Of a DNA stretch of 64,000 bases, positions 1-55,300 are shown in pieces; within the stretch, counting starts at the first letter, position 1; each line of letters begins with the position of its first letter. This DNA is from Candidatus Nomurabacteria bacterium. Lineage in GTDB: Bacteria; Patescibacteriota; Minisyncoccia; Phycocordibacterales; JAACPR01. The notes under the pieces were generated by a model, which saw nothing but the letters and a program-made list of their open reading frames with translations, made no database searches and was not told where the DNA came from. The stretch spans positions 1,187-65,186 of the forward strand of contig JACKFZ010000007.1 of the NCBI GenBank assembly GCA_020632215.1. The letters are read 5' to 3'. The translations under genes were made by a program, and so were the position numbers.

Positions 1-2712
1 AAAGAAAATTCTGAAATTGTTGATGATACTCAGGAACAAAATAAAATAATTCGTCAAGAATTAGATATTTACTCTGATCAAAATCCGGAGCATGTTTTGA
101 AAAAAGGTTTAGCTATTCCTGAAAGGGCACGAGATGAAATCGTTTTAGAGCTTCGGCCTGAAGCCCATGATGACAAAATGGCCGAGCTTATTTCTATTGC
201 AGAACAAAAGGGAATTGCTAACGTTTTGGATATTGTAGCTAAACTCGACGATCCACACATTAGCGATGACTTCCATCGTTTTTTGGTTGAATATGTGCGC
301 GAGGACTATCCTTTAAATGGTTTGAAAGAATCAATGCCTATTTTCAATGACATCAAGCGAGCTCTGTTTGAAGTGGTTATTCCTGAGAAGTTTGATAAGA
401 CAGGAGAAGATAAAATTCAATTGGGAGAATTAGTATTTAGAATGCAAAACTTTTTGTCTGGAATGATCTCTGTCACTGATGAAAAGTCAACAGAATATCT
501 GACTTTAGAAATTGCTAATCCAGTTGGTAGCAAAGAATTCGTCTTCTATATCTCAGTTCCAAATCGTCGCGCAGACCTTTTTGAAAAACAACTACTGTCT
601 GTTTTTTCAGATGCTAAAGTCACTCTGAGTAAAGATGACTTCAATATTTTTGTTGAAAACGGATACGCAGCTGGCTCTTATGCTAGTTTGAAAAAAATGC
701 CAGCTGAACCTTTGAAAACTATTGAGGAGTTTGAATCTGATCCGCTGGATGTTTTGCTTAATGTTTTTACAAAAATTGACGAGAAAAAAGGAGGTGCTGC
801 GGTACAAATGGTTTTTCGACCTGTTGGTGATTTTTATAACAAACATTTTTCAAAAGGTTTGAAGAAAATGGAAAAAGATGGTGGAATTCCCGAAGAATTT
901 TTTATTCGCAATACTGTTTCTCGTCGTATTATCAAAAATATTAATAATTTAATCAAATCAACAAGTAAAGAAGTTTTGAAAAAAGAAGGCGAAGAAGGAA
1001 TGTTAAAAGAAAAAGATATTGACTCAGGTTTGATGGAAAGAATTCGCAAGAAGAACAAAAGTCCAATAATTTCTACTAATGTTCGCATTGTCACTTCGGC
1101 TGAAACTTTAGCTAAAGCTGAAGATATTCTTTACGAAATTCAATCAGCTTTCAATCAGTTTGAGGATGCTAATGGAAACAGATTTGTTTTTGAAAAAATA
1201 AAAAAGGGAAAACATCGCGATTTTTTTACTGGATTTTCATATAGGAGATTTGATAATAGTTTTGATATACCTTTGAATATTGAGGAAATTGCAACGATTT
1301 TTCATTTACCATCTCGTTCAGAAGCCATCAATAGACAAGTTAGAAAAAACAAAGCAGCTTCTGCTGCAGCACCAATTACTCTTGGTCAAGATGGAATACT
1401 GCTTGGCATTAACGAACATTCAAATGTCAAAACTGAAATATATATGTCACCAGAAGATCGTCTGCGCCATTTTTATGTTATTGGACAGACAGGAACTGGA
1501 AAGACTAATTTTTTGAAAGATTTGATTATTCAAGATATTCAAAATGGTGAAGGTGTTTGTATGATTGATCCTCACGGAAATGATATTGAAGATATTTTGG
1601 CTAATATTCCAAAAGAAAGATATGATGATTTGATATATTTTGATCCATCATACACAGCGCGACCAATGGGACTAAACATGCTTGAATATGATCCTGAATT
1701 TCCAGAACAAAAAACTTTTGTTGTTAATGAGTTGTTTAGTATTTTCCAGAAACTTTATGGTGCTGTGCCAGAGTCTATGGGACCAATGTTCGAACAGTAT
1801 TTTAGAAATGCCACTTTGCTTGTTATCGAAGATCCGGATTCTGGCTCAACATTGCTAGACGTCTCTAGAGTAATGGCAGATAAAGAATACAGACAGCTGA
1901 AAGTTTCAAGATGTAAAAATCCTATTGTTGTTCAATTTTGGAAAGAGATTGCGGAAAAAGCAGGAGGTGAAGCTTCTTTGGCAAATATTGTTCCATATAT
2001 CACTAGTAAATTTGATATCTTTTTGGCTAACGATATTATGCGACCTGTTATTGCTCAAGAAAAATCTAGTTTCAATTTTAGAAAAATAATGGATGAGAGA
2101 AAAATTCTTTTGGTCAATCTTTCCAAAGGAAGGCTTGGAGACATAAACTCTCATTTGATTGGTTTAATTTTGGTAGGAAAAATTTTGATGGCGGCTCTTT
2201 CTCGTGTTGATTCTGGTGGGCAGAAGCTACCAACTTTCTATTTATATATAGATGAGTTTCAAAATATCACAACAAACTCTATTGCTACAATCCTTTCCGA
2301 AGCGAGAAAGTATGGTCTGAGTTTACACTTGGCTCATCAATTTATTGCTCAACTAGAGGATGATATAAAGAATGCGGTTTTTGGTAATGTGGGAAGTATG
2401 GCTGTATTTAGGGTCGGATCAGATGATGCTGATTACTTAGAAAATCAGTTTCTGCCAACTTTTTCGGCAAATGACATTATGAATGTCGATAACTATCATA
2501 ATTATATGAAAATGCTTTCTGGTGGTGTGCCTCAAAAACCATTTAGTATGCGGACTTTACCAGCACCAGAAGGAGATAAAAAAATTATTGAAAATCTAAA
2601 ACAACTTTCTTATTTTAAATTTGGTAAACAACGAGAAGTGGTCGAAGAGGAGATTTTGATGAAATTCAAAAAAGAATCAAAACCAGTGTCTAAATTTTCA
2701 CCACAAATATAA
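1..2712 (+). CDS. TraG/TraD/VirD4-family (type IV coupling protein-like) P-loop ATPase; reading frame is open from nt 1, so the 5' end lies upstream of the window
   Basis: Walker A 'VIGQTGTGKTNFLKDLI' followed by 'CMIDPHGN', Walker B 'FYLYIDEFQNI', and the C-terminal conserved block 'AHQFIAQLED...FGNVGSMAVFRVGSDDADYL' typical of T4CP/TrwB-like ATPases. No stop codon between nt 1 and the first ATG at 97. No N-terminal TM segment was seen. Confidence 0.6.
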   Translation, partial: KENSEIVDDTQEQNKIIRQELDIYSDQNPEHVLKKGLAIPERARDEIVLELRPEAHDDKMAELISIAEQKGIANVLDIVAKLDDPHISDDFHRFLVEYVREDYPLNGLKESMPIFNDIKRALFEVVIPEKFDKTGEDKIQLGELVFRMQNFLSGMISVTDEKSTEYLTLEIANPVGSKEFVFYISVPNRRADLFEKQLLSVFSDAKVTLSKDDFNIFVENGYAAGSYASLKKMPAEPLKTIEEFESDPLDVLLNVFTKIDEKKGGAAVQMVFRPVGDFYNKHFSKGLKKMEKDGGIPEEFFIRNTVSRRIIKNINNLIKSTSKEVLKKEGEEGMLKEKDIDSGLMERIRKKNKSPIISTNVRIVTSAETLAKAEDILYEIQSAFNQFEDANGNRFVFEKIKKGKHRDFFTGFSYRRFDNSFDIPLNIEEIATIFHLPSRSEAINRQVRKNKAASAAAPITLGQDGILLGINEHSNVKTEIYMSPEDRLRHFYVIGQTGTGKTNFLKDLIIQDIQNGEGVCMIDPHGNDIEDILANIPKERYDDLIYFDPSYTARPMGLNMLEYDPEFPEQKTFVVNELFSIFQKLYGAVPESMGPMFEQYFRNATLLVIEDPDSGSTLLDVSRVMADKEYRQLKVSRCKNPIVVQFWKEIAEKAGGEASLANIVPYITSKFDIFLANDIMRPVIAQEKSSFNFRKIMDERKILLVNLSKGRLGDINSHLIGLILVGKILMAALSRVDSGGQKLPTFYLYIDEFQNITTNSIATILSEARKYGLSLHLAHQFIAQLEDDIKNAVFGNVGSMAVFRVGSDDADYLENQFLPTFSANDIMNVDNYHNYMKMLSGGVPQKPFSMRTLPAPEGDKKIIENLKQLSYFKFGKQREVVEEEILMKFKKESKPVSKFSPQI

Positions 2713-15719: not shown

Positions 15720-15795
15720 GTCAGGATAGCTCAGTTGGTAGAGCATTCGCCTGAAGAGCGAAGGGTCGGCGGTTCGAGCCCGCCTCCTGACACCA
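15720..15795 (+). tRNA. tRNA-Phe (anticodon GAA), CCA encoded
   Basis: 'GTCAGGATAGCTCAGTTGGTAGAGCATTCGCCTGAAGAGCGAAGGGTCGGCGGTTCGAGCCCGCCTCCTGACACCA'. Confidence 0.85.
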
Positions 15796-15842
15796 AATTT
15801 ACAATTACCACTAAACAACGCGAAGCGTTGTGAGCTGACACC

Positions 15843-15862
15843 GAGCCCGCCTCCTGACACCA
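15843..15862 (+). repeat. 20-bp direct repeat of the tRNA-Phe 3' end (att-like scar)
   Basis: 'GAGCCCGCCTCCTGACACCA' is identical to tRNA positions 57-76 and lies 47 bp downstream of the gene; the hairpin 'CAACGCGAAGCGTTG' sits between them. Confidence 0.7.
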
Positions 15863-20940: not shown

Positions 20941-22209
20941 CTAAGAATTCAAACTTAAATTTCCTTCTGCTTTGATTTCTGGATTTACAACAGCTTGCTC
21001 TCTAAAACTTTTTAAATATCCAGCCATACCTATCATCACTGCATTGTCAGTTGATAGCTTTTGCTCAGGGAAAAAGACTTCGATATCTTTTTCTTCAACT
21101 AACTCTTGTAGGTTTTTTCTAATATATTGATTTGATATAACACCTCCTCCAACTATTAGATTTTTAATATCAAATTGATCTATAGCATCTGTTACTTTTT
21201 TCTTTAAAACATCGACAATAGCTTGTTCAAATTCTCTAGCAATTATTTTCTTCATATCATCAGAAATTTCTCCTAGCTCTTGAGTTTTGTATAAAACAGC
21301 AGTTTTTAATCCTGAAAAAGAAAAATCAAAGTCTTTACTATTGACCATTGGTCTTGGGAAGGAGATTTCAGAAAAAGGTAAATCTTTTTCTCTAGCTTCC
21401 TCTGCTAGCTTGGCAATTTCTGGTCCACCTGGATATGGGAGACCTAATAATCTAGCCACTTTGTCATAGGCTTCACCGACAGCATCATCTTTGGTTTGAC
21501 CTATAACTTCATATTTTCCCCATGATTTTATTAAAACTAACTCAGTATGACCGCCAGAAATAAGAAGAGCTAAGGTAGGGAAGTTGATTTTCGGATTTCG
21601 AATTTCGGATTTAGTGCTTCCTCGATTTTGATTAATCAAAATCGAGGATATGTGTCCTTCCATATGATTCACAGGTAAAAGAGGTATTTGCCAAACAATA
21701 GAAAGCGCTTTTGCAAAATTAATACCTGTCCATAGGCAAGGTTCTAGTCCAGGTCCAGATGTTACGGTAATAAGGTCAAGATCAGGTTTTTCGTGTGTTT
21801 CCAAAAAAGAAAAAAGTTTTTCAGTTAATTGAGGTTCTCTTTCCAAAAGTTTTTGGATTTCATCTGTTTTGTCATTCAAGACTTGTTCTGGGATTTCATC
21901 TGTTTTGTCATCCCGGACTTGATCCGGGATCTTGTTAGAATTACTTTCTGTTTGGAATTTGGAATTTGGAATTTGGTTTTTTGTGATTTGGAATTTGGAA
22001 TTTAATTCCTCCAAAAGGGGCACCAAATTTCTCGCATGTTCTCTTTTTGCCACAGCAGGAAAAACCCCTCCATATTCTTTGTGTATATCTATTTGAGAGT
22101 TTAAAGCTTCTGAAATAATTTCAAACTTAGGATTATCTAAATCACCTTCTGCTTCAATAATTGCTAAAGCCGTTTCATCACAAGATGTTTCTATGGATAG
22201 GATTTTCAT
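20941..22209 (-). CDS. tsaD: tRNA N6-adenosine threonylcarbamoyltransferase TsaD (Kae1/Gcp) with a ~60-aa low-complexity insertion
   Basis: 'MKILSIETSCDETALAII', 'TVTSGPGLEP', 'LLISGGHTELVL', 'FSGLKTAV' TsaD motifs; the insertion carries 'IPDQVRDDKTDE/IPEQVLNDKTDE' and 'NSKFQ' repeats. Confidence 0.85.
   Translation of the reverse strand: MKILSIETSCDETALAIIEAEGDLDNPKFEIISEALNSQIDIHKEYGGVFPAVAKREHARNLVPLLEELNSKFQITKNQIPNSKFQTESNSNKIPDQVRDDKTDEIPEQVLNDKTDEIQKLLEREPQLTEKLFSFLETHEKPDLDLITVTSGPGLEPCLWTGINFAKALSIVWQIPLLPVNHMEGHISSILINQNRGSTKSEIRNPKINFPTLALLISGGHTELVLIKSWGKYEVIGQTKDDAVGEAYDKVARLLGLPYPGGPEIAKLAEEAREKDLPFSEISFPRPMVNSKDFDFSFSGLKTAVLYKTQELGEISDDMKKIIAREFEQAIVDVLKKKVTDAIDQFDIKNLIVGGGVISNQYIRKNLQELVEEKDIEVFFPEQKLSTDNAVMIGMAGYLKSFREQAVVNPEIKAEGNLSLNS
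21856..22012. repeat. DNA-level tandem repeats inside the tsaD coding sequence
   Basis: (GGAATTT)n runs 'TTGGAATTTGGAATTTGGAATTTGG...GGAATTTGGAATTT' and a direct repeat 'GGGATTTCATCTGTTTTGTCAT' x2; contains the palindrome 'GACTTGATCCGGGATC', also seen at 35650. Confidence 0.6.
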
Positions 22210-22213
22210 TATG

Positions 22214-22287
22214 TGAGTAATACAGGACTTGAACCTGTGACCTCCACTACGTCAAAGTGGCGCTCTAGCCAACTGAGCTAATTACTC
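22214..22287 (-). tRNA. tRNA-Val (anticodon GAC)
   Basis: Reverse complement 'GAGTAATTAGCTCAGTTGGCTAGAGCGCCACTTTGACGTAGTGGAGGTCACAGGTTCAAGTCCTGTATTACTCA'; the 3' end is 4 nt from the tsaD start codon. Confidence 0.85.
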
Positions 22288-22971
22288 ATTTTGTTCGGAT
22301 ACTTTATCACAAAAGTATGCACTTAAAAACATTAATTCTCGAGATATTTGAACTCTCCCTATTCTTACCAGACAGACACCCTTATAGTGGCTGTAGGTTC
22401 TTTTTCCTAACGTTCGTTTGTCAAAAAAGGTATGTTTAAAATTATCTTTTGGTATTTTAAGCGACTTCGACCAGTATTCAGTTAGCTCCTTTTCATCTTG
22501 GTCTGATCTTAAATGTAGATCACAATAAAAATCTGTATAGTCCAAGTCATACAATTTAATTATTGATTCTATAAAAAACTTCAAGATAATGGGATTTGAA
22601 TTGCCCATACCAGTATCGCCAGTTTTAAATCCTTCCCCTAGATATAGTAGGGCAAGCGCAAGCTTTAAGACACTTTTGTCCCCCAAATGTATTTTAGTCA
22701 ATGTCTCCTTTGCTTTATCTTTTGCAATAGAAATTCTTTTTTCTTTTTCTGCAATATGCCACTCCTTTGCTTTTTCTCTTGCCTTAACCAATCCTTTTTG
22801 CCATTCTCCTTTTAACTTTTCTTTTTGTTTTTGAGTAAGTTGTATGTTTTTAAACCATCCACTTAAAGTGGACTTAGGAATGTTCAGTCTATCACTTATC
22901 TTTCTGATAGATACACCTTGCCTCCGTAAGTTAAGAGCCTTTTCTTTGCTTGAACCACTATACATTAGCAA
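22282..22971 (-). CDS. HTH-domain protein with a possible degenerate single LAGLIDADG motif
   Basis: N-terminal 'RRQGVSIRKISDRLNIPKSTLSGWF' helix-turn-helix; 'LALALLYLGEGFKTGDTG' loosely resembles LAGLIDADG; sits between tRNA-Val and tRNA-Glu. Confidence 0.3.
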   Translation of the reverse strand: MLMYSGSSKEKALNLRRQGVSIRKISDRLNIPKSTLSGWFKNIQLTQKQKEKLKGEWQKGLVKAREKAKEWHIAEKEKRISIAKDKAKETLTKIHLGDKSVLKLALALLYLGEGFKTGDTGMGNSNPIILKFFIESIIKLYDLDYTDFYCDLHLRSDQDEKELTEYWSKSLKIPKDNFKHTFFDKRTLGKRTYSHYKGVCLVRIGRVQISRELMFLSAYFCDKVSEQNE

Positions 22972-23073: not shown

Positions 23074-23145
23074 GGCCCTATCGTCTAACGGTTAGGACAG
23101 CAGGTTTTCATTCTGCAAATCGGGGTTCGATTCCCCGTAGGGTCA
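23074..23145 (+). tRNA. tRNA-Glu (anticodon TTC)
   Basis: 'GGCCCTATCGTCTAACGGTTAGGACAGCAGGTTTTCATTCTGCAAATCGGGGTTCGATTCCCCGTAGGGTCA'. Confidence 0.85.
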
Positions 23146-23250
23146 CACGATAAAAAATACATATAGCGAAGCGATATGTATTTTTGTATCGCTTAGATCT
23201 TGCGAATTTTCGTTAAAGCCTGCCCCGTAAATGAGCGGAGCGAATTATAC

Positions 23251-23273
23251 GGGGATTCCCCGTAGGGTCACCA
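23251..23273 (+). repeat. direct repeat of the tRNA-Glu 3' end (att-like), opening the cassette-like array
   Basis: 'GGGGATTCCCCGTAGGGTCACCA' shares 17 identical nt ('ATTCCCCGTAGGGTCAC') with the tRNA 3' terminus, 106 bp downstream of the gene. Confidence 0.7.
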
Positions 23274-23307
23274 TTTAGAGCGCTAGTGTGAGCGCTCGAG
23301 AAACATT

Positions 23308-24147
23308 ATGAATAAACAAGATAGAATAGAAGAATTAAAGAAAATCGGTGTAGCAAAAGAACTATACGTGCTACCTGATTTGATAGAAGATTCTAATTTT
23401 CAAAATTTATTAAATCCACAGGAAATAAATGTTCTGCAAAATCTAAAACAAAACCTTAGAACAGTTACTAATTATAGCGGTATAGTCGCTGATATAGTCT
23501 CAAAATATTATGGATATAAAATATCTAAAGACGTTAATTTAAATTCACTAGAAGAGAAAGTTAATTCGTTAGAAGGAAAGATTTCAGAAAGTAAAAAATC
23601 TCTTGAAGAAGTAGAAAATTTTGCCGAAGTGGCAAAGGGTGCTGGCGCAATGAAGTCTTATGCAAAGATTTTTAAAACTAGAGCAACAAGACATAAGGAG
23701 AAGGCGGATATTCAGTTTAAATATTATTTAATAAGTTTATTTAGTCTGCTTCTTATTACATGGATGGTTTTCTTCTTTAATGTTGTGGAGTTTAATTTTG
23801 TAAAAAATATTATAGCCGAAGATATTTTATTTAAATTTAATATAGGTATTTTTACATTCAAAATACTACTTTTGATTTTTATATTTCAAATCTCTCAATT
23901 CTTTAAGAAATCCTATAATGCAGAGAAACATTTGGAAGAAGTTTATTCAAACAGAAGTGATGTGCTTAATTCTTTACATGCTGTCTATGTATCGATTGAA
24001 AATCCTGTTGAAAAAGATAGGCTATTAAGTATAGGGGCAACTTTTGCATATGAAAGAGGTGAAACTGGTTATATAACTACAAAAGAGGGTGCTGGTGGAG
24101 ATGATGATTATATTGCAAACCTAATAAGCCGATTATTGAGTAAGTAA
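23308..24147 (+). CDS. hypothetical protein: cytoplasmic coiled-coil N-domain, two TM helices, C-domain (array unit 1)
   Basis: 279-aa ORF; hydrophobic 'YYLISLFSLLLITWMVFFF' and 'IGIFTFKILLLIFIFQI'; no recognised motif. Confidence 0.4.
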   Translation: MNKQDRIEELKKIGVAKELYVLPDLIEDSNFQNLLNPQEINVLQNLKQNLRTVTNYSGIVADIVSKYYGYKISKDVNLNSLEEKVNSLEGKISESKKSLEEVENFAEVAKGAGAMKSYAKIFKTRATRHKEKADIQFKYYLISLFSLLLITWMVFFFNVVEFNFVKNIIAEDILFKFNIGIFTFKILLLIFIFQISQFFKKSYNAEKHLEEVYSNRSDVLNSLHAVYVSIENPVEKDRLLSIGATFAYERGETGYITTKEGAGGDDDYIANLISRLLSK

Positions 24148-24281
24148 AAAATACTGCTCGAGAAGGGTCACTATGATATTGTTTAGCTATTAAAAATAGC
24201 CTTACAGACCTTAACCGACCACGGTTCCATCTCGATTCGGCTCACCATTTAGAGCGATAGTTCGAGTGCTCGATAAGTATC
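24148..24281 (+). repeat. inter-unit repeat (boundary motif plus tRNA-3'-half-like segment)
   Basis: 'GCTCGAGAAGGGTCACTATG...AGCCTTACAGACCTTAACCGACCACGGTTCCATCTCGATTCGGCTCACCATTTAGAGCGATAGTTCGAGTGCTCG'; related copies at 24950-25055 and 25330-25504. Confidence 0.6.
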
Positions 24282-24971
24282 ATGGCTGGGAAGAAACAAA
24301 AAATAGAATTCAAATTAGGTATTACTAAAAGAGGTGTTAAAGGTAAAGCAAGTTTCAATTTTGTTTTTACAGATAATGGGGATGTGTATATAACACCGAG
24401 ATTTAAAGAAAAACTATATAAGTCTACAAAAATAACACTACATCCACCAAACATAGAGTACCCTAACAATTACCAATCTTTTTCTTTTCAAAAAGATTCA
24501 ATACCTGATTTAGGAGAAAGCAAAAGACATATACAACAAACAAAGGGTGACTTTGATATAGGTCACGGTCTCCATTTCAGACAATCTATACTTATACATT
24601 CTAGTATATTAAAAAGAGCTTCAATGTTTAATGACACACAAACACATGTGGATATATATTTAGATAAAGGAGAAACAATATTGGATCTAACATTACTTTC
24701 CTCAAATAAAAAATTTAAAGGAATTCCTAATAGAAAACAGGGCTTTAAAAAACTCTTTGATGTTATCATAAAAGACTCTGTCCAATTCTGTTTGGTTTTT
24801 AAAGGTAGAAAAATTCTTTCAAAAGAGCTGCAAGAACTAGAAGAGGTATCAAAAAAAGATATCCATGATTTTGATGGAATTGTTACGATTGGCGGTAATA
24901 CAAAAAATGGATATCCTGTGATAACTTACTTGGATAAAGATTATTTAAGTGCTCGAGCGGGGTCAAAGTAA
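24282..24971 (+). CDS. hypothetical protein (array unit 2)
   Basis: 229-aa ORF, basic N-terminus; the 3' end 'GCTCGAGCGGGGTCAAAGTAA' overlaps the conserved boundary motif. Confidence 0.4.
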   Translation: MAGKKQKIEFKLGITKRGVKGKASFNFVFTDNGDVYITPRFKEKLYKSTKITLHPPNIEYPNNYQSFSFQKDSIPDLGESKRHIQQTKGDFDIGHGLHFRQSILIHSSILKRASMFNDTQTHVDIYLDKGETILDLTLLSSNKKFKGIPNRKQGFKKLFDVIIKDSVQFCLVFKGRKILSKELQELEEVSKKDIHDFDGIVTIGGNTKNGYPVITYLDKDYLSARAGSK

Positions 24972-25055
24972 TTTATAAATTCTATCTAAAATAACCTTAT
25001 GGGGCTTAATCGACTACGGTTCGAGAGGATTTGATAAATTTGATATAATTTATAG
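24972..25055 (+). repeat. inter-unit repeat
   Basis: 'AAAATAACCTTATGGGGCTTAATCGACTACGGTTCGAGAGGATTTG' is homologous to the 24190 and 25365 copies. Confidence 0.55.
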
Positions 25056-25352
25056 ATGATTTATTTATTATTGATTATAATAATTATTTTGTTGTTATAC
25101 ATAGCCTTTTTTACACCAGAAAAAAGAGAGCGACGAAACATAAGAAGGGTTCAGAAAATTTTTAATACCCCCTTACCAGAGCCACCATTATTTAAAATTG
25201 GTGATCCGAGAAATGAAACACACCCTGATGAGACGGTCACTTATGAATACCCAAGTGGAGAAAAAGGTATCAGTAATCGAAAATTGGCCACAATTATTTA
25301 TAAAATGGAGGAAAAAAATCATCCGCTCGAAAAGGGTCAAAATAATTTATAA
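25056..25352 (+). CDS. small hypothetical protein with N-terminal TM helix (array unit 3)
   Basis: 98-aa ORF; the 3' end 'GCTCGAAAAGGGTCAAAATAA' overlaps the boundary motif. Confidence 0.3.
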   Translation: MIYLLLIIIIILLLYIAFFTPEKRERRNIRRVQKIFNTPLPEPPLFKIGDPRNETHPDETVTYEYPSGEKGISNRKLATIIYKMEEKNHPLEKGQNNL

Positions 25353-25504
25353 ATTTATATTAAAATAAACCTTACAGGTCTTAATCGAGCGTGGTTCCAT
25401 CTCGATTCGGCTCACCGTGTGGCGAGCGTAGCGAGCTTTACACGGTCACCAAAACCGAGCATAGTTTATGGTACTCGAGTAAAATAAATTGTTATAATTA
25501 AAAT
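25353..25504 (+). repeat. inter-unit repeat
   Basis: 'AAACCTTACAGGTCTTAATCGAGCGTGGTTCCATCTCGATTCGGCTCACCGTGTGGCGAGCGTAGCGAGCTTTACACGGTCACC'. Confidence 0.6.
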
Positions 25505-25936
25505 ATGAAATTTCAGGGTAGAGAATATAGCACTATAACTGATCAAATACCATCAAAAAAATACTCACTGGATAATTTTTTAGTAGACTGTTTGAGCCAG
25601 GATAATGCATTAGACCCTGGCGAGATTGAACTATACGAAAAACGTTTATTGACTCCTATTTATGAAGAATATGCTGGTTTATTTGAATTAATTGAAGAAG
25701 ATGTAGACATAGCCTCAGAACAAAAAGAAAGGATTAAAAGTCAACTTAATAAATTAATGGGCTTATTTCAAGACATTTCTGTTAGAGACCCAAAAGACAT
25801 AATACTTTCACTACAAAGTCAGAAATATGGAAAAGATTGGCCGGATCAATTTTTTCAAGAGAGATTTGATCCACTAGTTGATATGATTATTAGAAAATTT
25901 ACTGATTCTATAAAAAATCTAGAGGATCAGAATTAA
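25505..25936 (+). CDS. acidic hypothetical protein (array unit 4)
   Basis: 143-aa ORF; followed at 25941 by another boundary-motif copy 'GCTTGAGAAGGTCCATAAAG'. Confidence 0.35.
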   Translation: MKFQGREYSTITDQIPSKKYSLDNFLVDCLSQDNALDPGEIELYEKRLLTPIYEEYAGLFELIEEDVDIASEQKERIKSQLNKLMGLFQDISVRDPKDIILSLQSQKYGKDWPDQFFQERFDPLVDMIIRKFTDSIKNLEDQN

Positions 25937-26041
25937 ATAAATGCTTGAGAAGGTCCATAAAGATTTACAAAAATCTATATCTATTTTAATATCACAAAGT
26001 CTCTATTTTTAAAATTTTTTAACTCAATAAAAGAAGCTAAA

Positions 26042-48335: not shown

Positions 48336-48863
48336 ATGAAAACAAAAGGAATAAAAAGAAGTTTAATAATATCGTTTATAGTTGGATTAATTGCTTTCTT
48401 CTTTCTTTTTAATTTGGCAGGGGCACAGAGTGGGAGAGAAACTAACGCTGTTTCTGTTCCAAGTGGTGGCTCTGGTAGTTCACAGAGTAGTGGCACTATT
48501 ATTTCTGGTGGCTTGGTGCCGTGTGGAAATGGGAATGCTGACGGCAACCTTGTTGAAATTAATGCTGGTTCGTGCACCTTTCAAGACCTTATAGAGTTAG
48601 TTAATCGGATTATAAAATTTCTAGTAATAGCTTCTAGCTTTGTCTTTGTTATTATTGTTGTCTACGCGGGGTGGATTTATATTAGTTCAGGAGGTGATAC
48701 AGGAAAAGTGGCTCAAGCACATAAGATGTTTTTTAATTCTGTTGTAGGGATTATAATAGTTATATCGGCATGGTTGATTATAAAAATGATTTTAGAAGGT
48801 CTAAAGACAGATTCAAAGTTTCAAGAAGTTTTATCGTTTATAGATTTATTATGGCTCGTATAA
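48336..48863 (+). CDS. VirB2/TrbC-like pilin family protein (paralogue 1 of 7)
   Basis: Signal/TM N-terminus, Gly/Ser-rich linker, Cys pair 'LVPCGNG...CTFQDLIELVNRIIKFL', two C-terminal TM helices. Confidence 0.5.
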   Translation: MKTKGIKRSLIISFIVGLIAFFFLFNLAGAQSGRETNAVSVPSGGSGSSQSSGTIISGGLVPCGNGNADGNLVEINAGSCTFQDLIELVNRIIKFLVIASSFVFVIIVVYAGWIYISSGGDTGKVAQAHKMFFNSVVGIIIVISAWLIIKMILEGLKTDSKFQEVLSFIDLLWLV

Positions 48864-54241: not shown

Positions 54242-54526
54242 TGTGCCCGGGGCGGGAATCGAACCCGCATCCCAGAGGGACACGCAAATATTTTATAGCA
54301 AGTCGTGCGTGTATACATGCAACCATACTATTGCTATGTGCCCGGGGCGGGAATCGAACCCGCATCCCAGAGGGACACGCAAATATTTTATAGCAAGTCG
54401 TGCGTGTATACATGCAACCATACTATTGCTATGTGCCCGGGGCGGGAATCGAACCCGCATCCCAGAGGGACACGCAAATATTTTATAGCAAGTCGTGCGT
54501 GTATACATGCAACCATACTATTGCTA
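54242..54526 (-). repeat. three tandem 95-bp pseudo-tRNA-Leu(TAA) copies
   Basis: Each unit shares the 3' 43 nt of the tRNA ('TGCCCGGGGCGGGAATCGAACCCGCATCCCAGAGGGACACG' on plus), has an anticodon loop expanded by 11 nt ('CTTGCTATAAAATATTTG') and an unrelated 5' part; period exactly 95 bp. Confidence 0.85.
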
Positions 54527-54528
54527 TG

Positions 54529-54609
54529 TGCCCGGGGCGGGAATCGAACCCGCATCCCAGAGGGACACGATTTTAAGTCGTGCGTGTATACCAATTCCAC
54601 CACCCGGGC
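54529..54609 (-). tRNA. tRNA-Leu (anticodon TAA)
   Basis: Reverse complement 'GCCCGGGTGGTGGAATTGGTATACACGCACGACTTAAAATCGTGTCCCTCTGGGATGCGGGTTCGATTCCCGCCCCGGGCA'. Confidence 0.8.
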
Positions 54610-54790: not shown

Positions 54791-55300
54791 TTAAATAATT
54801 CGTTTTACTTTATCTGTGATTTTTTCTGGTTTAAGTTTAAAGTAATTATCAAAATGGTCAAATTTTCTTTTGAGAAAGAAACCATCTCTTTTATCTTTAT
54901 AAAGCCAACAGAATAATTTAATTGATTGGGAACTATCATAATATAGCCTATAAGCTCTTGAATATTTCTTGATGTTTGCTTTTATACCAGCATTTTCTTC
55001 CAATTTTGCTCTCAATATCTTTAAGAATTCGTATCTTCCGCAAGTGAATATAATTCTTAATCTTTTTATCTTATCTTCTAGTTTTTCTATATAAACACAC
55101 CCATTCCCATCAAAGTACCCTAAAACAAAACTATTTAGATATTTTTTAGGAATATCTGGGAATAACATTGTTGTGGATTTGTTCGGATATAAACCAATTT
55201 GTTGTAACGAATTATATATATCTTTGTCTCCAATTCTCAATAAATAAAGTTTCTTGTGATTATTATATTGTGATGAAGAGATTTTATGCTCTGAACTCAA
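54791..55300 (-). CDS. free-standing LAGLIDADG-family homing endonuclease-like protein
   Basis: 'NSFVLGYFDGNGCVYIEK' LAGLIDADG-type motif; 169 aa (single-motif size); 6 bp from tRNA-Cys. Confidence 0.55.
   Translation of the reverse strand: MSSEHKISSSQYNNHKKLYLLRIGDKDIYNSLQQIGLYPNKSTTMLFPDIPKKYLNSFVLGYFDGNGCVYIEKLEDKIKRLRIIFTCGRYEFLKILRAKLEENAGIKANIKKYSRAYRLYYDSSQSIKLFCWLYKDKRDGFFLKRKFDHFDNYFKLKPEKITDKVKRII

What the first reader, a model, noticed from the sequence alone, without database searches (positions are those of the whole stretch)
23146..26040. tRNA-Glu-anchored tandem cassette array with tRNA-3'-end-mimicking boundary repeats
Directly downstream of tRNA-Glu, the last 17 nt of the tRNA ('ATTCCCCGTAGGGTCAC') are duplicated at 23251-23273. 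Four small unrelated ORFs follow (23308-24147, 24282-24971, 25056-25352, 25505-25936). Each ends in, or is followed by, the same about 20-bp motif 'GCTCGARAAGGGTCAMW', whose core 'AGGGTCA' copies the tRNA-Glu 3' terminus. Between units lie conserved 70-150-bp repeats that contain a tRNA-3'-half-like block 'GGTTCCATCTCGATTCGGCTCACCA'. The motif overlaps the last codons of two ORFs, so the repeat structure is older than, or independent of, the individual genes. This is the arrangement expected from serial site-specific insertions at one tRNA att site, similar to an integron or a tandem integrative-element array. However, no integrase is visible in the window. The only neighbouring candidate is the divergent HTH protein at 22282-22971. 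The cargo proteins have no recognisable domains. A stand-alone GGDEF gene follows immediately after the array.
Basis: seen in the sequence. Interest (0 to 1): 0.8.

Follow-up and report, generated by a model that had tools for sequence, protein, structure and literature searches.

The report
tRNA-anchored gene-cassette array in a CPR bacterium
Four unrelated small genes sit in a row behind a tRNA-Glu gene, separated by copies of a ~100-135-bp attachment-site-like module that elsewhere marks the far end of serine-recombinase genomic islands inserted at tRNA genes, so the row is best read as a stack of captured mobile gene units.

Summary
tRNA-Glu (23074-23146) is followed by an exact 18-nt copy of its 3' end, then four unrelated same-strand ORFs separated by a repeated module: Box1 (GCTCGAGAAGGGTCA), an A+T-rich spacer, a conserved core (CCTTACAGNNCTTAAYCGANNNNGGTTC), then Box2. 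From GGTTC to its end, Box2 is colinear with the tRNA from T-loop to 3' end. CCA, a linker and a third box follow.

The module is not private to this genome. It occurs in other CPR (Candidate Phyla Radiation) MAGs and metagenomes. In five of six loci with enough flanking sequence, it lies at the far end of an island that begins at a tRNA gene and encodes a highly conserved large serine recombinase (LSR). Its last bases track the anchoring tRNA (Glu, Ser or Gln). Another contig starts with tRNA-Glu-CCA-linker-box followed by a different cassette array. An ORF2 homologue (64% identity) carries the same module in a different neighbourhood.

The window encodes no recombinase, and RNAalifold finds no conserved RNA fold in the module.

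Best reading: a recombinase-less tandem array built by site-specific recombination at tRNA-Glu. This is a new variant of tRNA-island accretion (like tycheposons, SCC or CIMEs), not an integron. Mobility itself is not shown.

The parts
23074..23146 (+). tRNA-Glu(ttc), the anchor of the array. It has no encoded CCA.
   Evidence: ARAGORN; Rfam RF00005 60.3 bits; sequence.
23147..23253 (+). 107-nt segment between the tRNA and the copy of its 3' end. It holds a terminator-like 17-bp hairpin tipped by GCGAAGC (about 23148-23190) and a second hairpin CCCCGTA...GAGCGGAGCGA...TACGGGG (23223-23254). L009 lacks this segment, so it is read as a secondary mini-insertion or duplication.
   Evidence: DNA fold z = -4.2. 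AGCGNAGCGA occurs 3 times in the window against 0.1 expected. In L009, tRNA-Glu is followed directly by CCA-linker-box.
23254..23273 (+). Exact 18-nt copy of the tRNA-Glu 3' end plus CA (...GGGTCACCA). This is the attL-type left half-site.
   Evidence: the repeat finder family D14, 100% identity; sequence.
23272..23302 (+). 'P-right' unit 0: CA, a linker with the inverted repeat GAGCGC-TAGTGTGA-GCGCTC, then the half-box GCTCGAGAA. It ends 5 nt before the ORF1 ATG.
   Evidence: Repeat family D4. 14 aligned instances in the window, L009, L010 and L014.
23308..24147 (+). Cargo ORF1, 279 aa. Predicted membrane protein with a borderline DUF6161 hit.
   Evidence: Pfam 26.0 bits against a cut-off of 27. 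The precomputed Pfam hit for the same protein is also marked weak.
24156..24276 (+). Junction 1, a complete module. Box1 24156-24171; A+T spacer with TAAAAAT; core 24200-24227; Box2/tRNA mimic 24223-24248 (GGTTCCATCTCGATTCGGCTCACCA); linker and inverted repeat 24249-24267; Box3 GCTCGATAA 24268-24276.
   Evidence: nhmmer 9.3e-23 (the model includes this copy). Alignments A1 and A2.
24282..24971 (+). Cargo ORF2, 229 aa, of a rare family. Its last codons (SARAGSK*) are encoded by Box1.
   Evidence: Only 3 hits at E <= 0.001 among 1.84 billion cluster representatives, two of them full-length. Homologue P0125 carries the same box-encoded C-terminus and module. Homologue P0126 is cargo inside an LSR island.
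24951..25026 (+). Junction 2, truncated: Box1 (2 mismatches), spacer and core 24995-25022. It ends after GGTTCGAG. Box2 and P-right are missing.
   Evidence: nhmmer 3.5e-18, model positions 2-79. The pairwise alignment with L036 shows where homology stops.
25056..25352 (+). Cargo ORF3, 98 aa, with an N-terminal hydrophobic segment. TATAAT lies at 25044-25049, 6 nt before the ATG. Box1 overlaps its last codons.
25325..25482 (+). Junction 3. Box1 25325-25340; core 25370-25397; Box2 25393-25416; inserted hairpin GTGT-GGCGAGCGTAGCGAGCTTT-ACAC 25417-25443 with a repeated end GGTCACCA 25444-25451; linker; Box3 CTCGAGTAA 25474-25482.
   Evidence: nhmmer 9e-20.
25505..25936 (+). Cargo ORF4, 143 aa, no recognised family. 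TATAAT lies at 25493-25498, 6 nt before the ATG.
25943..26041 (+). Junction 4, the distal end, decayed. It keeps a degenerate Box1 GCTTGAGAAGGTCCA, an A+T spacer and a remnant of the start of the core. There is no Box2.
   Evidence: 3-mismatch hit; alignment A1 row win_J4.

Best explanation
Region 23147-26041 is a recombinase-less tandem array of four small gene units stacked behind tRNA-Glu. It was built by site-specific recombination of a family of integrative elements that is widespread in CPR bacteria.

Anatomy. Each inter-ORF junction is a complete or truncated attP-like site with two parts.
- A left part ('P-left', about 95 nt) consists of Box1, an A+T spacer with a -10-like TAAAAT, a conserved core, and Box2. 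The last 23 nt (GGTTC...GGCTCAC) are colinear with tRNA-Glu from T-loop to 3' end.
- A right part ('P-right', 30-45 nt) consists of CA, a linker and Box3.
The tRNA-proximal site is attL-like: a tRNA 3' end joined to P-right. The distal site is a decayed attR.

Where the same module occurs elsewhere. In relatives it is the far end of islands that begin at a tRNA gene and encode one conserved large serine recombinase. There the anchoring tRNA carries CCA-linker-box at its end, and P-left abuts host DNA.

Inferred steps. A recombinase of that family, encoded elsewhere or no longer present, inserted unit after unit at the tRNA-Glu end. Newer units pushed older ones outwards. Two junctions have since been truncated.

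What is shown and what is inferred. The anatomy, the homology of the junctions to island ends, the tRNA-specific mimicry, the different cargo in a second tRNA-Glu array, and the ORF2+module unit in another context are shown. The identity of the recombinase, the crossover point (tRNA end or the 8-9-nt box) and present-day mobility are inferred. The proposed outward promoter in the module is also an inference.
For: 1. Repeats are far above chance and confined to this locus.

2. The core pattern finds 7 genome loci and 10 metagenome loci, all labelled CPR where labelled. They share Box1-spacer-core-Box2.

3. A 439-aa LSR (Resolvase + Recombinase + Zn_ribbon_recom) lies next to the module in L004, L005 and L008, and about 5 kb from it in L017.

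4. In 5 of 6 LSR loci with 10-kb flanks the order is tRNA, then island with LSR, then module, with tRNA and module on the same strand. These are L023, L025, L029 and L032 (tRNA-Ser) and L021 (tRNA-Gln). L005 shows the same order with tRNA-Trp.

5. Only island-anchoring tRNAs carry encoded CCA + linker + box; L032's tRNA-Ser is an exception. The other tRNAs in the same loci carry neither, and apart from tRNA-Phe, which has CCA but no box, neither do the window's.

6. The last 9 nt of the module match the cognate tRNA type: Glu-type 6-7 of 9, Gln-type 9 of 9, Ser-type mostly 6-8 of 9. Matches to non-cognate tRNAs are 2-6 of 9, mostly 2-4.

7. L009 starts with tRNA-Glu-CCA-linker-box and continues as a co-oriented array with other cargo, including a DGR, a helicase and a phosphatase. 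L010, L011 and L014 also have 2-3 modules. L014 has two tandem modules with no ORF between them. L021 has a 282-aa ORF flanked by two modules beyond an LSR island.

8. The ORF2 homologue P0125 (64% identity) keeps the box-encoded C-terminus, spacer, core and Box2 but follows a ThsB-TIR gene and a TGTCAC motif. P0126 is cargo in an LSR island.

9. The 23-sequence alignment has no consensus RNA structure: -0.35 kcal/mol and no covarying pair. Rfam finds nothing. Conservation is therefore at the level of DNA sequence.
Against: - No recombinase is found in the 64-kb window, and the rest of the genome could not be searched.
- No circular junction, empty site or cassette-order variant of this strain was seen. 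Three Logan contigs from other samples carry the same order.
- Internal junctions are attP-like (P-left + P-right). Canonical phage LSRs do not create these by attP x attL recombination, so array growth needs either a permissive recombinase, as reported for Ccr (own knowledge), or a second crossover site at the box.
- P-left (about 95 nt) is longer than a usual LSR attP, and its three boxes are direct repeats, not inverted. This is unlike textbook LSR sites.
- LSR association was shown for Ser-, Gln- and Trp-anchored modules. It was never shown for a Glu-type array.
- In two loci the LSR lies next to type I R-M hsdS genes, so some members could be invertases.
- The nhmmer model was built partly from the window's own copies.
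Confidence: 0.68

Rival explanations
1. Integron-like capture at the box. The true crossover site is the 8-9-nt box (GCTCGAGAA), not the tRNA end. Single-ORF cassettes are inserted into, and excised from, boxes of a repeated scaffold by the LSR or by an unidentified recombinase. The tRNA-proximal site acts like attI.
For: - Each of ORF1, ORF2 and ORF4 is bracketed by direct copies of the box core: 23294/24156, 24268/24951 and 25474/25943.
- L014 shows the uninterrupted 'empty' state ...GCGCTCGAGAAGGGTC... in tandem.
- In L036 the ORF2 homologue sits exactly between the TGTCAC motif and Box1, where LSR-type modules such as L007 have nothing. It is flanked by box-like repeats AGCTTGATAG and AGTGCTCGAGAG.
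- In L011 every ORF is flanked by CACGAGG/CACGAAG boxes.
- The box core is locus-specific (CTCGAGAA, CACGAGAC, CACGAGGA), as expected if partner sites must match.
Against: - In a periodic array, 'ORF inserted in a box' cannot be told apart from 'module inserted between ORFs'.
- No circular cassette or alternative occupancy was observed.
- No recombinase is known that acts on such sites.
- Locus-specific boxes could equally arise by local duplication or gene conversion.
Confidence: 0.25
2. Fossil graveyard. The units are deletion remnants of once larger LSR islands that integrated one after another. They are not mobile and are not a capture system.
For: - Junctions 2 and 4 are truncated.
- No recombinase is in the window.
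- The strain's gene order is identical in contigs from other samples.
- CIME-type decay followed by accretion is the documented route for tandem arrays (PMC5704250).
Against: - Random decay would not be expected to leave a full 120-160-nt junction after single ORFs at junctions 1 and 3.
- It would not be expected to keep ORF2 plus its module as one unit in another genome.
- It would not be expected to produce ORF-less tandem modules (L014).
Confidence: 0.3
3. Regulatory repeat. The module is a promoter plus leader (or terminator) sequence copied in front of genes by local duplication. It has no role in recombination.
For: - A -10-like TAAAAT is conserved 2-3 nt before the core in most of the 23 modules.
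- In L023 and L025 host start codons (tsaD, mscL) lie 0-2 nt after the module end, so the module probably drives them.
- ORF3 and ORF4 have their own TATAAT.
Against: - The ORFs are unrelated, so there was no gene duplication.
- Modules are about 90% identical between MAGs labelled as different CPR phyla and sit at the ends of recombinase islands.
- The module's 3' end mimics the anchoring tRNA.
- The promoter scan is not above the shuffle expectation.
- A promoter role is compatible with, and probably part of, an att-end function.
Confidence: 0.08
4. Classical integron remnant (a CALIN, a cluster of attC sites lacking an integrase), or a structured RNA such as tRNA-like punctuation, a riboswitch or an sRNA.
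For: - The ORFs are co-oriented and separated by 100-160-nt repeats.
- In junction 1 the two palindromic CTCGAG ends can pair (DNA fold z = -3.3).
Against: - There is no IntI.
- Junction 3 does not fold above background, although my 25325-25470 fragment omitted its Box3 at 25474-25482.
- In Ser-type modules the boxes (CACGAGA) are direct repeats and cannot pair.
- RNAalifold finds no structure and no covariation.
- No Rfam family matches, even at E <= 1.
Confidence: 0.03

Closest known systems
Tycheposons and tRNA-anchored genomic islands of Prochlorococcus (bioRxiv 10.1101/2020.12.28.424599)
   Same: - Elements integrate at a few tRNA genes.
- Successive integrations push older elements outwards.
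- Neighbours are separated only by a partial tRNA copy.
- Remnants and extra partial tRNAs build persistent islands of flexible genes.
- A minority of those elements use a large serine recombinase.
   Different: - The units here are single ORFs of 0.4-1 kb with no integration or replication genes.
- The separator is a 100-135-nt composite module with three boxes and a diverged tRNA mimic, not a plain displaced tRNA fragment.
- The associated recombinase is an LSR in every island I saw.
- The hosts are CPR bacteria.
Staphylococcal/enterococcal cassette chromosomes (SCCmec, ECC) and their composite or recombinase-less (pseudo-SCC) arrays (PMC6222049; arrays and Ccr promiscuity from my own knowledge)
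   Same: - LSR-driven insertion at the 3' end of a conserved gene.
- About 50-bp direct att repeats flank each element.
- Cargo is highly variable.
- Tandem composites include units without recombinase genes.
   Different: - The target here is a tRNA 3' end rather than rlmH.
- There is one LSR gene rather than a ccrAB pair.
- The att module is longer and mimics the tRNA.
- The units are much smaller.
- No sequence relationship to Ccr was tested.
CIMEs and tandem accretion of integrative elements (PMC5704250)
   Same: - Elements have lost their integrase but keep att sites.
- They lie in tandem at the 3' end of a target gene (often a tRNA).
- They are potentially mobilisable in cis or trans by a related integrase.
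   Different: - CIMEs are described as decayed ICEs or IMEs of several kb, with tyrosine or serine integrases, in Firmicutes.
- Here four one-gene units each have a near-complete junction.
- No helper element has been identified.
Integron cassette arrays and CALINs
   Same: - Co-oriented, mostly single-ORF cassettes of unrelated function.
- Each is followed by a recombination-site-like repeat.
- The array can exist without an adjacent integrase.
- ORF ends run into the site.
   Different: - There is no IntI tyrosine recombinase.
- There is no attC hairpin architecture and no RYYYAAC/GTTRRRY ends.
- The anchor is a tRNA gene rather than attI.
- Some cassettes have their own -10 box.

Membership tests
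tRNA-anchored tandem integrative-element array (island accretion; Islander/tycheposon/CIME sense) | An intact tRNA gene at one end of the array | tested here: met
   tRNA-Glu 23074-23146.
tRNA-anchored tandem integrative-element array (island accretion; Islander/tycheposon/CIME sense) | Direct repeats of the tRNA 3' segment at the unit boundaries | tested here: met
   An exact 18-nt copy at 23254-23271. Diverged mimics GGTTC...GGCTCACC(A) at 24223 and 25393, and GGTCACCA at 25444. 7 of the last 9 nt match tRNA-Glu, against 2-6 (mostly 2-4) for other tRNAs.
tRNA-anchored tandem integrative-element array (island accretion; Islander/tycheposon/CIME sense) | A site-specific recombinase encoded in or beside the array | tested here: not met
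   None found in the 64-kb window (four ORFs of 150 aa or more had no domain scan). The feature is met in loci with homologous modules: an LSR in L004, L005, L008, L017, L021, L023, L025, L029, L032 and L037. The window array therefore corresponds to the recombinase-less (CIME-like) state.
tRNA-anchored tandem integrative-element array (island accretion; Islander/tycheposon/CIME sense) | Evidence of mobility: excision junctions, empty sites, or the same unit in different contexts | tested here: inconclusive
   ORF2 plus its module occurs in a different context in L036 at about 65-70% nucleotide identity. A second tRNA-Glu array has other cargo (L009). No variant of the window strain was seen, and raw reads were not available.
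Integron (IntI, attI, attC cassettes) | IntI-type tyrosine recombinase adjacent to the array | tested here: not met
   No Phage_integrase-type hit in the window ORFs scanned.
Integron (IntI, attI, attC cassettes) | attC sites: imperfect hairpins with complementary R''/R' and L''/L' boxes | tested here: not met
   Folding is inconsistent between junctions: z = -3.3 for junction 1 and -0.85 for junction 3, whose fragment omitted Box3. There is no consensus structure in 23 modules. In Ser-type modules the boxes are direct repeats.
Integron (IntI, attI, attC cassettes) | Co-oriented cassettes, typically one ORF each | tested here: met
   Four + strand ORFs, one per unit.
LSR cassette chromosome (SCC/ECC-like) | Large serine recombinase(s) carried by the element | tested here: not met
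   Absent from the window. A single LSR gene is present in related islands (and later). Relationship to CcrA/B was not tested.
LSR cassette chromosome (SCC/ECC-like) | Insertion at the 3' end of one conserved gene, with direct att repeats around every unit, including recombinase-less units | tested here: met
   All units follow the tRNA-Glu 3' end and are separated by the repeated module.
Known structured RNA family (Rfam) or tRNA-like processing element | A match to a curated covariance model, or a conserved secondary structure with covariation | tested here: not met
   Rfam E-value scans of 20-30 kb and of 7 related loci found only tRNAs. RNAalifold gave -0.35 kcal/mol and no compensatory pair.

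The most novel reading that the evidence does not exclude
CPR bacteria may possess their own integron-like gene-capture system. One-gene cassettes would be inserted and excised at a short box inside a tRNA-mimicking, 100-135-nt att module that also carries a promoter-like element. The recombinase would be the very abundant, highly conserved LSR acting in trans. The tRNA gene would serve as the primary docking site, and the module's 3' end would be re-tuned to different tRNAs (Glu, Ser, Gln, Trp). This would be a serine-recombinase analogue of the integron and a main route by which these minimal genomes acquire accessory and defence genes.
Probability: 0.25. Interest if true: 0.85.

Novelty: new variant of a known kind. 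Interest (0 to 1): 0.6.

Why it matters
CPR/Patescibacteria have tiny genomes, and few mobile elements have been described for them. I found no paper in the held library describing tRNA-anchored LSR islands or cassette arrays in them.

The module is a sequence signature that can be searched for with a profile. It marks the boundaries of flexible DNA in CPR MAGs and links small orphan gene arrays to islands that carry CBASS, Pycsar, type I R-M and metal-resistance genes.

If the LSR is the enzyme, its att site shows natural retargeting between tRNAs through co-variation of about 20 nt. That is directly testable and relevant to LSR engineering.

If single-gene capture is real, it would be a second, independently evolved cassette-array system beside integrons.

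Tried and rejected
- HTH protein 22282-22971 as recombinase or LAGLIDADG nuclease. Pfam finds only N-terminal HTH hits. The AF2 model has pLDDT 61 and no significant PDB match. It has no similarity to the window's LAGLIDADG_3 ORF. My motif-by-eye guess is rejected.
- tmRNA, RNase P, riboswitch or sRNA. No Rfam or ARAGORN tmRNA hit and no conserved fold.
- attC-like hairpin. Inconsistent between junctions.
- DGR/retroelement link. Reverse transcriptases lie next to modules in L003 and L009 but appear to be cargo. There is no RT in the window.
- GGDEF flank as a handle on related genomes. There are no close homologues, so the search was uninformative.
- One search with the four cargo proteins concatenated. 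It returned nothing because the word filter was swamped; that search was wasted.
- Viral collection. The core pattern gave 0 hits. Five LSR-encoding viral contigs had no module and no tRNA.
- ORF2 structure. pLDDT 35, unusable.
- Replication origin at about 23 kb. GC skew simply follows gene strand.
- Dyad symmetry of Box2 and Box3. It is apparent only because CTCGAG is a palindrome. In Ser-type modules (CACGAGA) the boxes are clearly direct repeats.

Full report
**1. What is in the window**

ARAGORN and Rfam place tRNA-Glu(ttc) at 23074-23146. Its last 18 nt (GATTCCCCGTAGGGTCAC) recur exactly at 23254-23271. The copy continues with CA, so it reads ...GGGTCACCA, while the gene has no encoded CCA.

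Four + strand ORFs follow: 279, 229, 98 and 143 aa. None has a significant Pfam, NCBIfam, PHROG or PADLOC match. ORF1 has a sub-threshold DUF6161 hit.

The boundary motif GCTCGARAAGGGTCA, the block GGTTCCATCTCGATTCGGCTCACC and a composite box-spacer-core pattern are all far above shuffle expectations. Within the 64 kb they are confined to this locus.

Reading the junctions together gives one repeated unit with these parts, in order:
- Box1 (GCTCGAGAAGGGTCA), directly after or overlapping the ORF end.
- About 28 A+T-rich nt ending in TAAAAT.
- A core, CCTTACAGNNCTTAAYCGANNNNGGTTC.
- Box2 (CTCGATTCGGCTCACC).
- CA, plus a linker with GAGCGC-TAGTGTGA-GCGCTC.
- Box3 (GCTCGAGAA or GCTCGATAA), 5-22 nt before the next ATG.

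Junction 1 (24156-24276) is complete. Junction 3 (25325-25482) is complete but carries a 27-nt hairpin insertion with a re-duplicated GGTCACCA. Junction 2 stops after GGTTCGAG (25026). Junction 4 keeps only a degenerate Box1, the spacer and the start of the core.

From GGTTC to its end, Box2 is 23 nt long, the same length as tRNA-Glu from T-loop to 3' end. It matches tRNA-Glu at 15 of 23 positions (my hand count on the sequences).

**2. The module is a family, not a local oddity**

One scan of 185,579 species genomes with the core pattern gave 7 loci, all in MAGs labelled Saccharibacteria, Paceibacterota or Gracilibacteria. One scan of JGI metagenomes gave 10 more. All share Box1-spacer-core-Box2 (alignments A1 and A2).

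A profile built from these (nhmmer) also picks up further copies, all co-oriented with the local ORFs:
- L009 has three modules plus several box-only hits.
- L010 has two modules and L011 has two.
- L014 has two tandem modules with no ORF between them.

The profile contains the window's own copies, so its E-values for the window are not independent. The cross-locus alignments are.

**3. Link to a recombinase and to tRNA genes**

In L004, L005 and L008 a 439-aa large serine recombinase lies about 300 nt from the module, divergently oriented. In L017 and L007 cargo is inserted between the two.

The LSR family is very large. Source names include Campbellbacteria, Taylorbacteria and Nomurabacteria.

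I fetched contexts with 10-kb flanks for six LSR proteins on long contigs and scanned them for modules and tRNAs. Five show the same layout: a tRNA, then an island of 7-19 kb containing the LSR, then the module, with tRNA and module on the same strand.
- L023: tRNA-Ser(cga).
- L025: tRNA-Ser(tga).
- L029 and L032: tRNA-Ser.
- L021: tRNA-Gln, in a Nomurabacteria MAG.

L005 shows the same layout with tRNA-Trp. The sixth locus is cut 5.7 kb upstream of the LSR.

The islands share a ParB-like methyltransferase, a terminase-like protein and an S24 repressor. They carry CBASS, Pycsar, type I R-M or copper-resistance genes.

Three details tie the module to the integration site:
- Island-anchoring tRNAs end in an encoded CCA followed by a short linker and a box (CACGAGA... 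or CTCGAGAA...); L032's tRNA-Ser is an exception. The other tRNAs in the same loci carry neither, and in the window only tRNA-Phe has CCA, without a box. CCA-linker-box therefore comes with the element ('P-right').
- At the other end the module abuts host DNA. In L023 and L025 the start codons of tsaD and mscL lie 0-2 nt after it. In the window, tsaD's ATG likewise follows tRNA-Val by 3 nt.
- The last 9 nt of the module match the cognate tRNA type and match other tRNAs less well.

The module is thus the element's left half-site and arm ('P-left'), built as a mimic of the tRNA end. The window's internal junctions are P-left + P-right, that is attP-like. The copy at 23254-23302 is attL-like.

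**4. A sister array and a travelling unit**

Contig L009 begins with tRNA-Glu(ctc) whose end reads ...GGGTCACCA-ATTAGAGCACTAGTGTGAGCG-CTCGAGAAGGGTAC. This is exactly the window's arrangement without the 107-nt segment 23147-23253. An 11-kb co-oriented array follows, with different cargo separated by modules and boxes.

ORF2 has only three hits at E <= 0.001, two of them full-length homologues, among 1.84 billion cluster representatives.
- P0125 (64% identity, L036) has the same Box1-encoded C-terminus (SAREGSK*), spacer, core and Box2. It follows a ThsB-TIR gene and the TGTCACTTTTGTCAC motif typical of LSR-type modules. Nucleotide homology with the window runs from the start codon to GGTTCGAG.
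- P0126 (50% identity) is cargo inside an LSR island, 1.3 kb upstream of that island's module.

So at least one window cassette belongs to the cargo pool of these elements and keeps its module as one unit.

**5. What it is not**

- *Not a structured RNA.* RNAalifold on 23 distinct modules finds no structure (three weak pairs, no covariation). Rfam finds nothing. The inverted repeat in the linker decays without compensation. Conservation is therefore at the DNA-sequence level.
- *Not an integron.* There is no IntI. Single-strand folding is not consistent between junctions, although my junction-3 fragment stopped short of its Box3. In Ser-type modules the boxes are direct repeats.
- *No recombinase in cis.* No recombinase or reverse transcriptase was found in the window.
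- *The HTH protein is not a candidate.* The HTH protein beside the tRNA shows nothing beyond an HTH.

**6. Mechanism, with its weak points**

Best-supported reading (about 0.7): units of this element family were inserted one after another at the tRNA-Glu end by a recombinase acting in trans, most likely a member of the CPR LSR family. Older units moved outwards, and junctions 2 and 4 were later truncated.

Open points:
- *Crossover position.* Island boundaries point to the tRNA end or the end of Box2. The direct box repeats around each ORF, the ORF-less tandem in L014 and the position of the ORF2 homologue in L036 point to the box.
- *Internal attP-like junctions.* How an LSR would generate them is unclear. 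Precedent exists in SCC/ECC composites and in CIME accretion (Ccr promiscuity is from my own knowledge).
- *Current activity.* It is unknown whether the array is still active. Only identical copies of this strain were found. Logan contigs break at 23102 and 23231 in several samples. That could reflect heterogeneity or merely shared tRNA k-mers.
- *Promoter role.* The conserved TAAAAT before the core and the abutting host start codons suggest the module also serves as an outward promoter. This is an inference.

**7. Comparison and novelty**

The closest concepts are:
- Tycheposon-built tRNA islands.
- LSR cassette chromosomes.
- CIME accretion.

The present case differs in several ways. The units are one gene long. 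The separator is long, composite and tRNA-mimicking. The recombinase family is an LSR, and the host group is CPR. I found no description of this in the held literature.

I rate it a new variant of a known kind, with interest 0.6. The unexcluded integron-like reading would rate higher.

Noticed in passing
window 54242-54569 (minus strand, immediately 3' of tRNA-Leu(taa) 54528-54609): A perfect tandem repeat of 95 nt x 3.5 copies (100% matches). Each unit is a 22-nt spacer plus the 3' two-thirds of tRNA-Leu, with a 13-nt insertion in the anticodon loop. That makes three extra partial tRNA-Leu copies with no cargo between them. It could be a stack of empty att sites, or an assembly artefact.
   Followed up: partly
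window 15720-15860 (tRNA-Phe and downstream): tRNA-Phe has an encoded CCA. It is followed by 40 nt containing a CAACGC-GAA-GCGTTG hairpin, then an exact 20-nt duplicate of its own 3' end including CCA. The same kind of 'GNA-triloop hairpin (GCGNAGC) plus re-duplicated tRNA end' occurs after tRNA-Glu (23147-23273), inside junction 3 (25417-25451) and after the module of L032. It looks like a separate small insertion or duplication process that targets tRNA-type ends. The mechanism is unknown.
   Followed up: partly
L021 (Nomurabacteria JAPLXS010000004.1), tRNA-Gln c20156-20227: The last 13 nt of the tRNA are tandemly duplicated with a 2-nt gap, and the second copy carries CCA (CCAGGTCTGGCAGctCCAGGTCTGGCAGCCA). 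A box follows. It looks like a scar or an empty site at an island-anchoring tRNA.
   Followed up: no
loci L004-L008, L017, L021-L033: A 438-443-aa large serine recombinase is extremely abundant and conserved in CPR data: more than 8000 clusters, and the best 120 are >=74% identical to the query. Copies 93-99% identical occur in MAGs labelled as different phyla. This implies recent horizontal spread or binning errors. L032 has two copies at two divergent tRNA-Ser genes.
   Followed up: partly
window 22209-22213; L023 about 2351; L025 about 6305: The tsaD start codon lies 3 nt after the 3' end of tRNA-Val in the window. In L023 tsaD starts directly at the end of the island's module, and in L025 mscL does the same. 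The module may replace the tRNA as the upstream transcription signal.
   Followed up: no
L003 (RT 335 aa + Avd-like + target), L009 1581-4365, L031 17-1072: Diversity-generating retroelement genes (reverse transcriptase, four-helix-bundle accessory protein, C-terminally variable target) lie directly beside modules or LSR genes in three loci. They are apparently cargo of the same elements.
   Followed up: partly
L010 311-982 and both contig-proximal junctions: An IS3-family transposase element seems to be inserted into a Box2 (GGCTCAC|...|TTCACC). The same IS end sequence appears at two module copies.
   Followed up: no
window 54791-55300 (-) and 22282-22971 (-): A LAGLIDADG_3-domain ORF lies next to tRNA-Cys. 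An HTH protein of unknown C-terminal fold lies between tRNA-Val and tRNA-Glu, and a fragment of a homologue lies just upstream of tRNA-Trp in L005.
   Followed up: partly
window 97-2712 and 48336-48863: A TrwB/TraG-like coupling-protein ORF and a T4SS-pilin-like ORF are present in the window. They are possible DNA-transfer or uptake machinery. No link to the array was tested.
   Followed up: no
L036 128-1319: The ORF2 homologue follows an AHJR-like nuclease, a 132-aa membrane protein and a ThsB-type TIR protein. The ORF2 family may therefore travel with defence genes.
   Followed up: no
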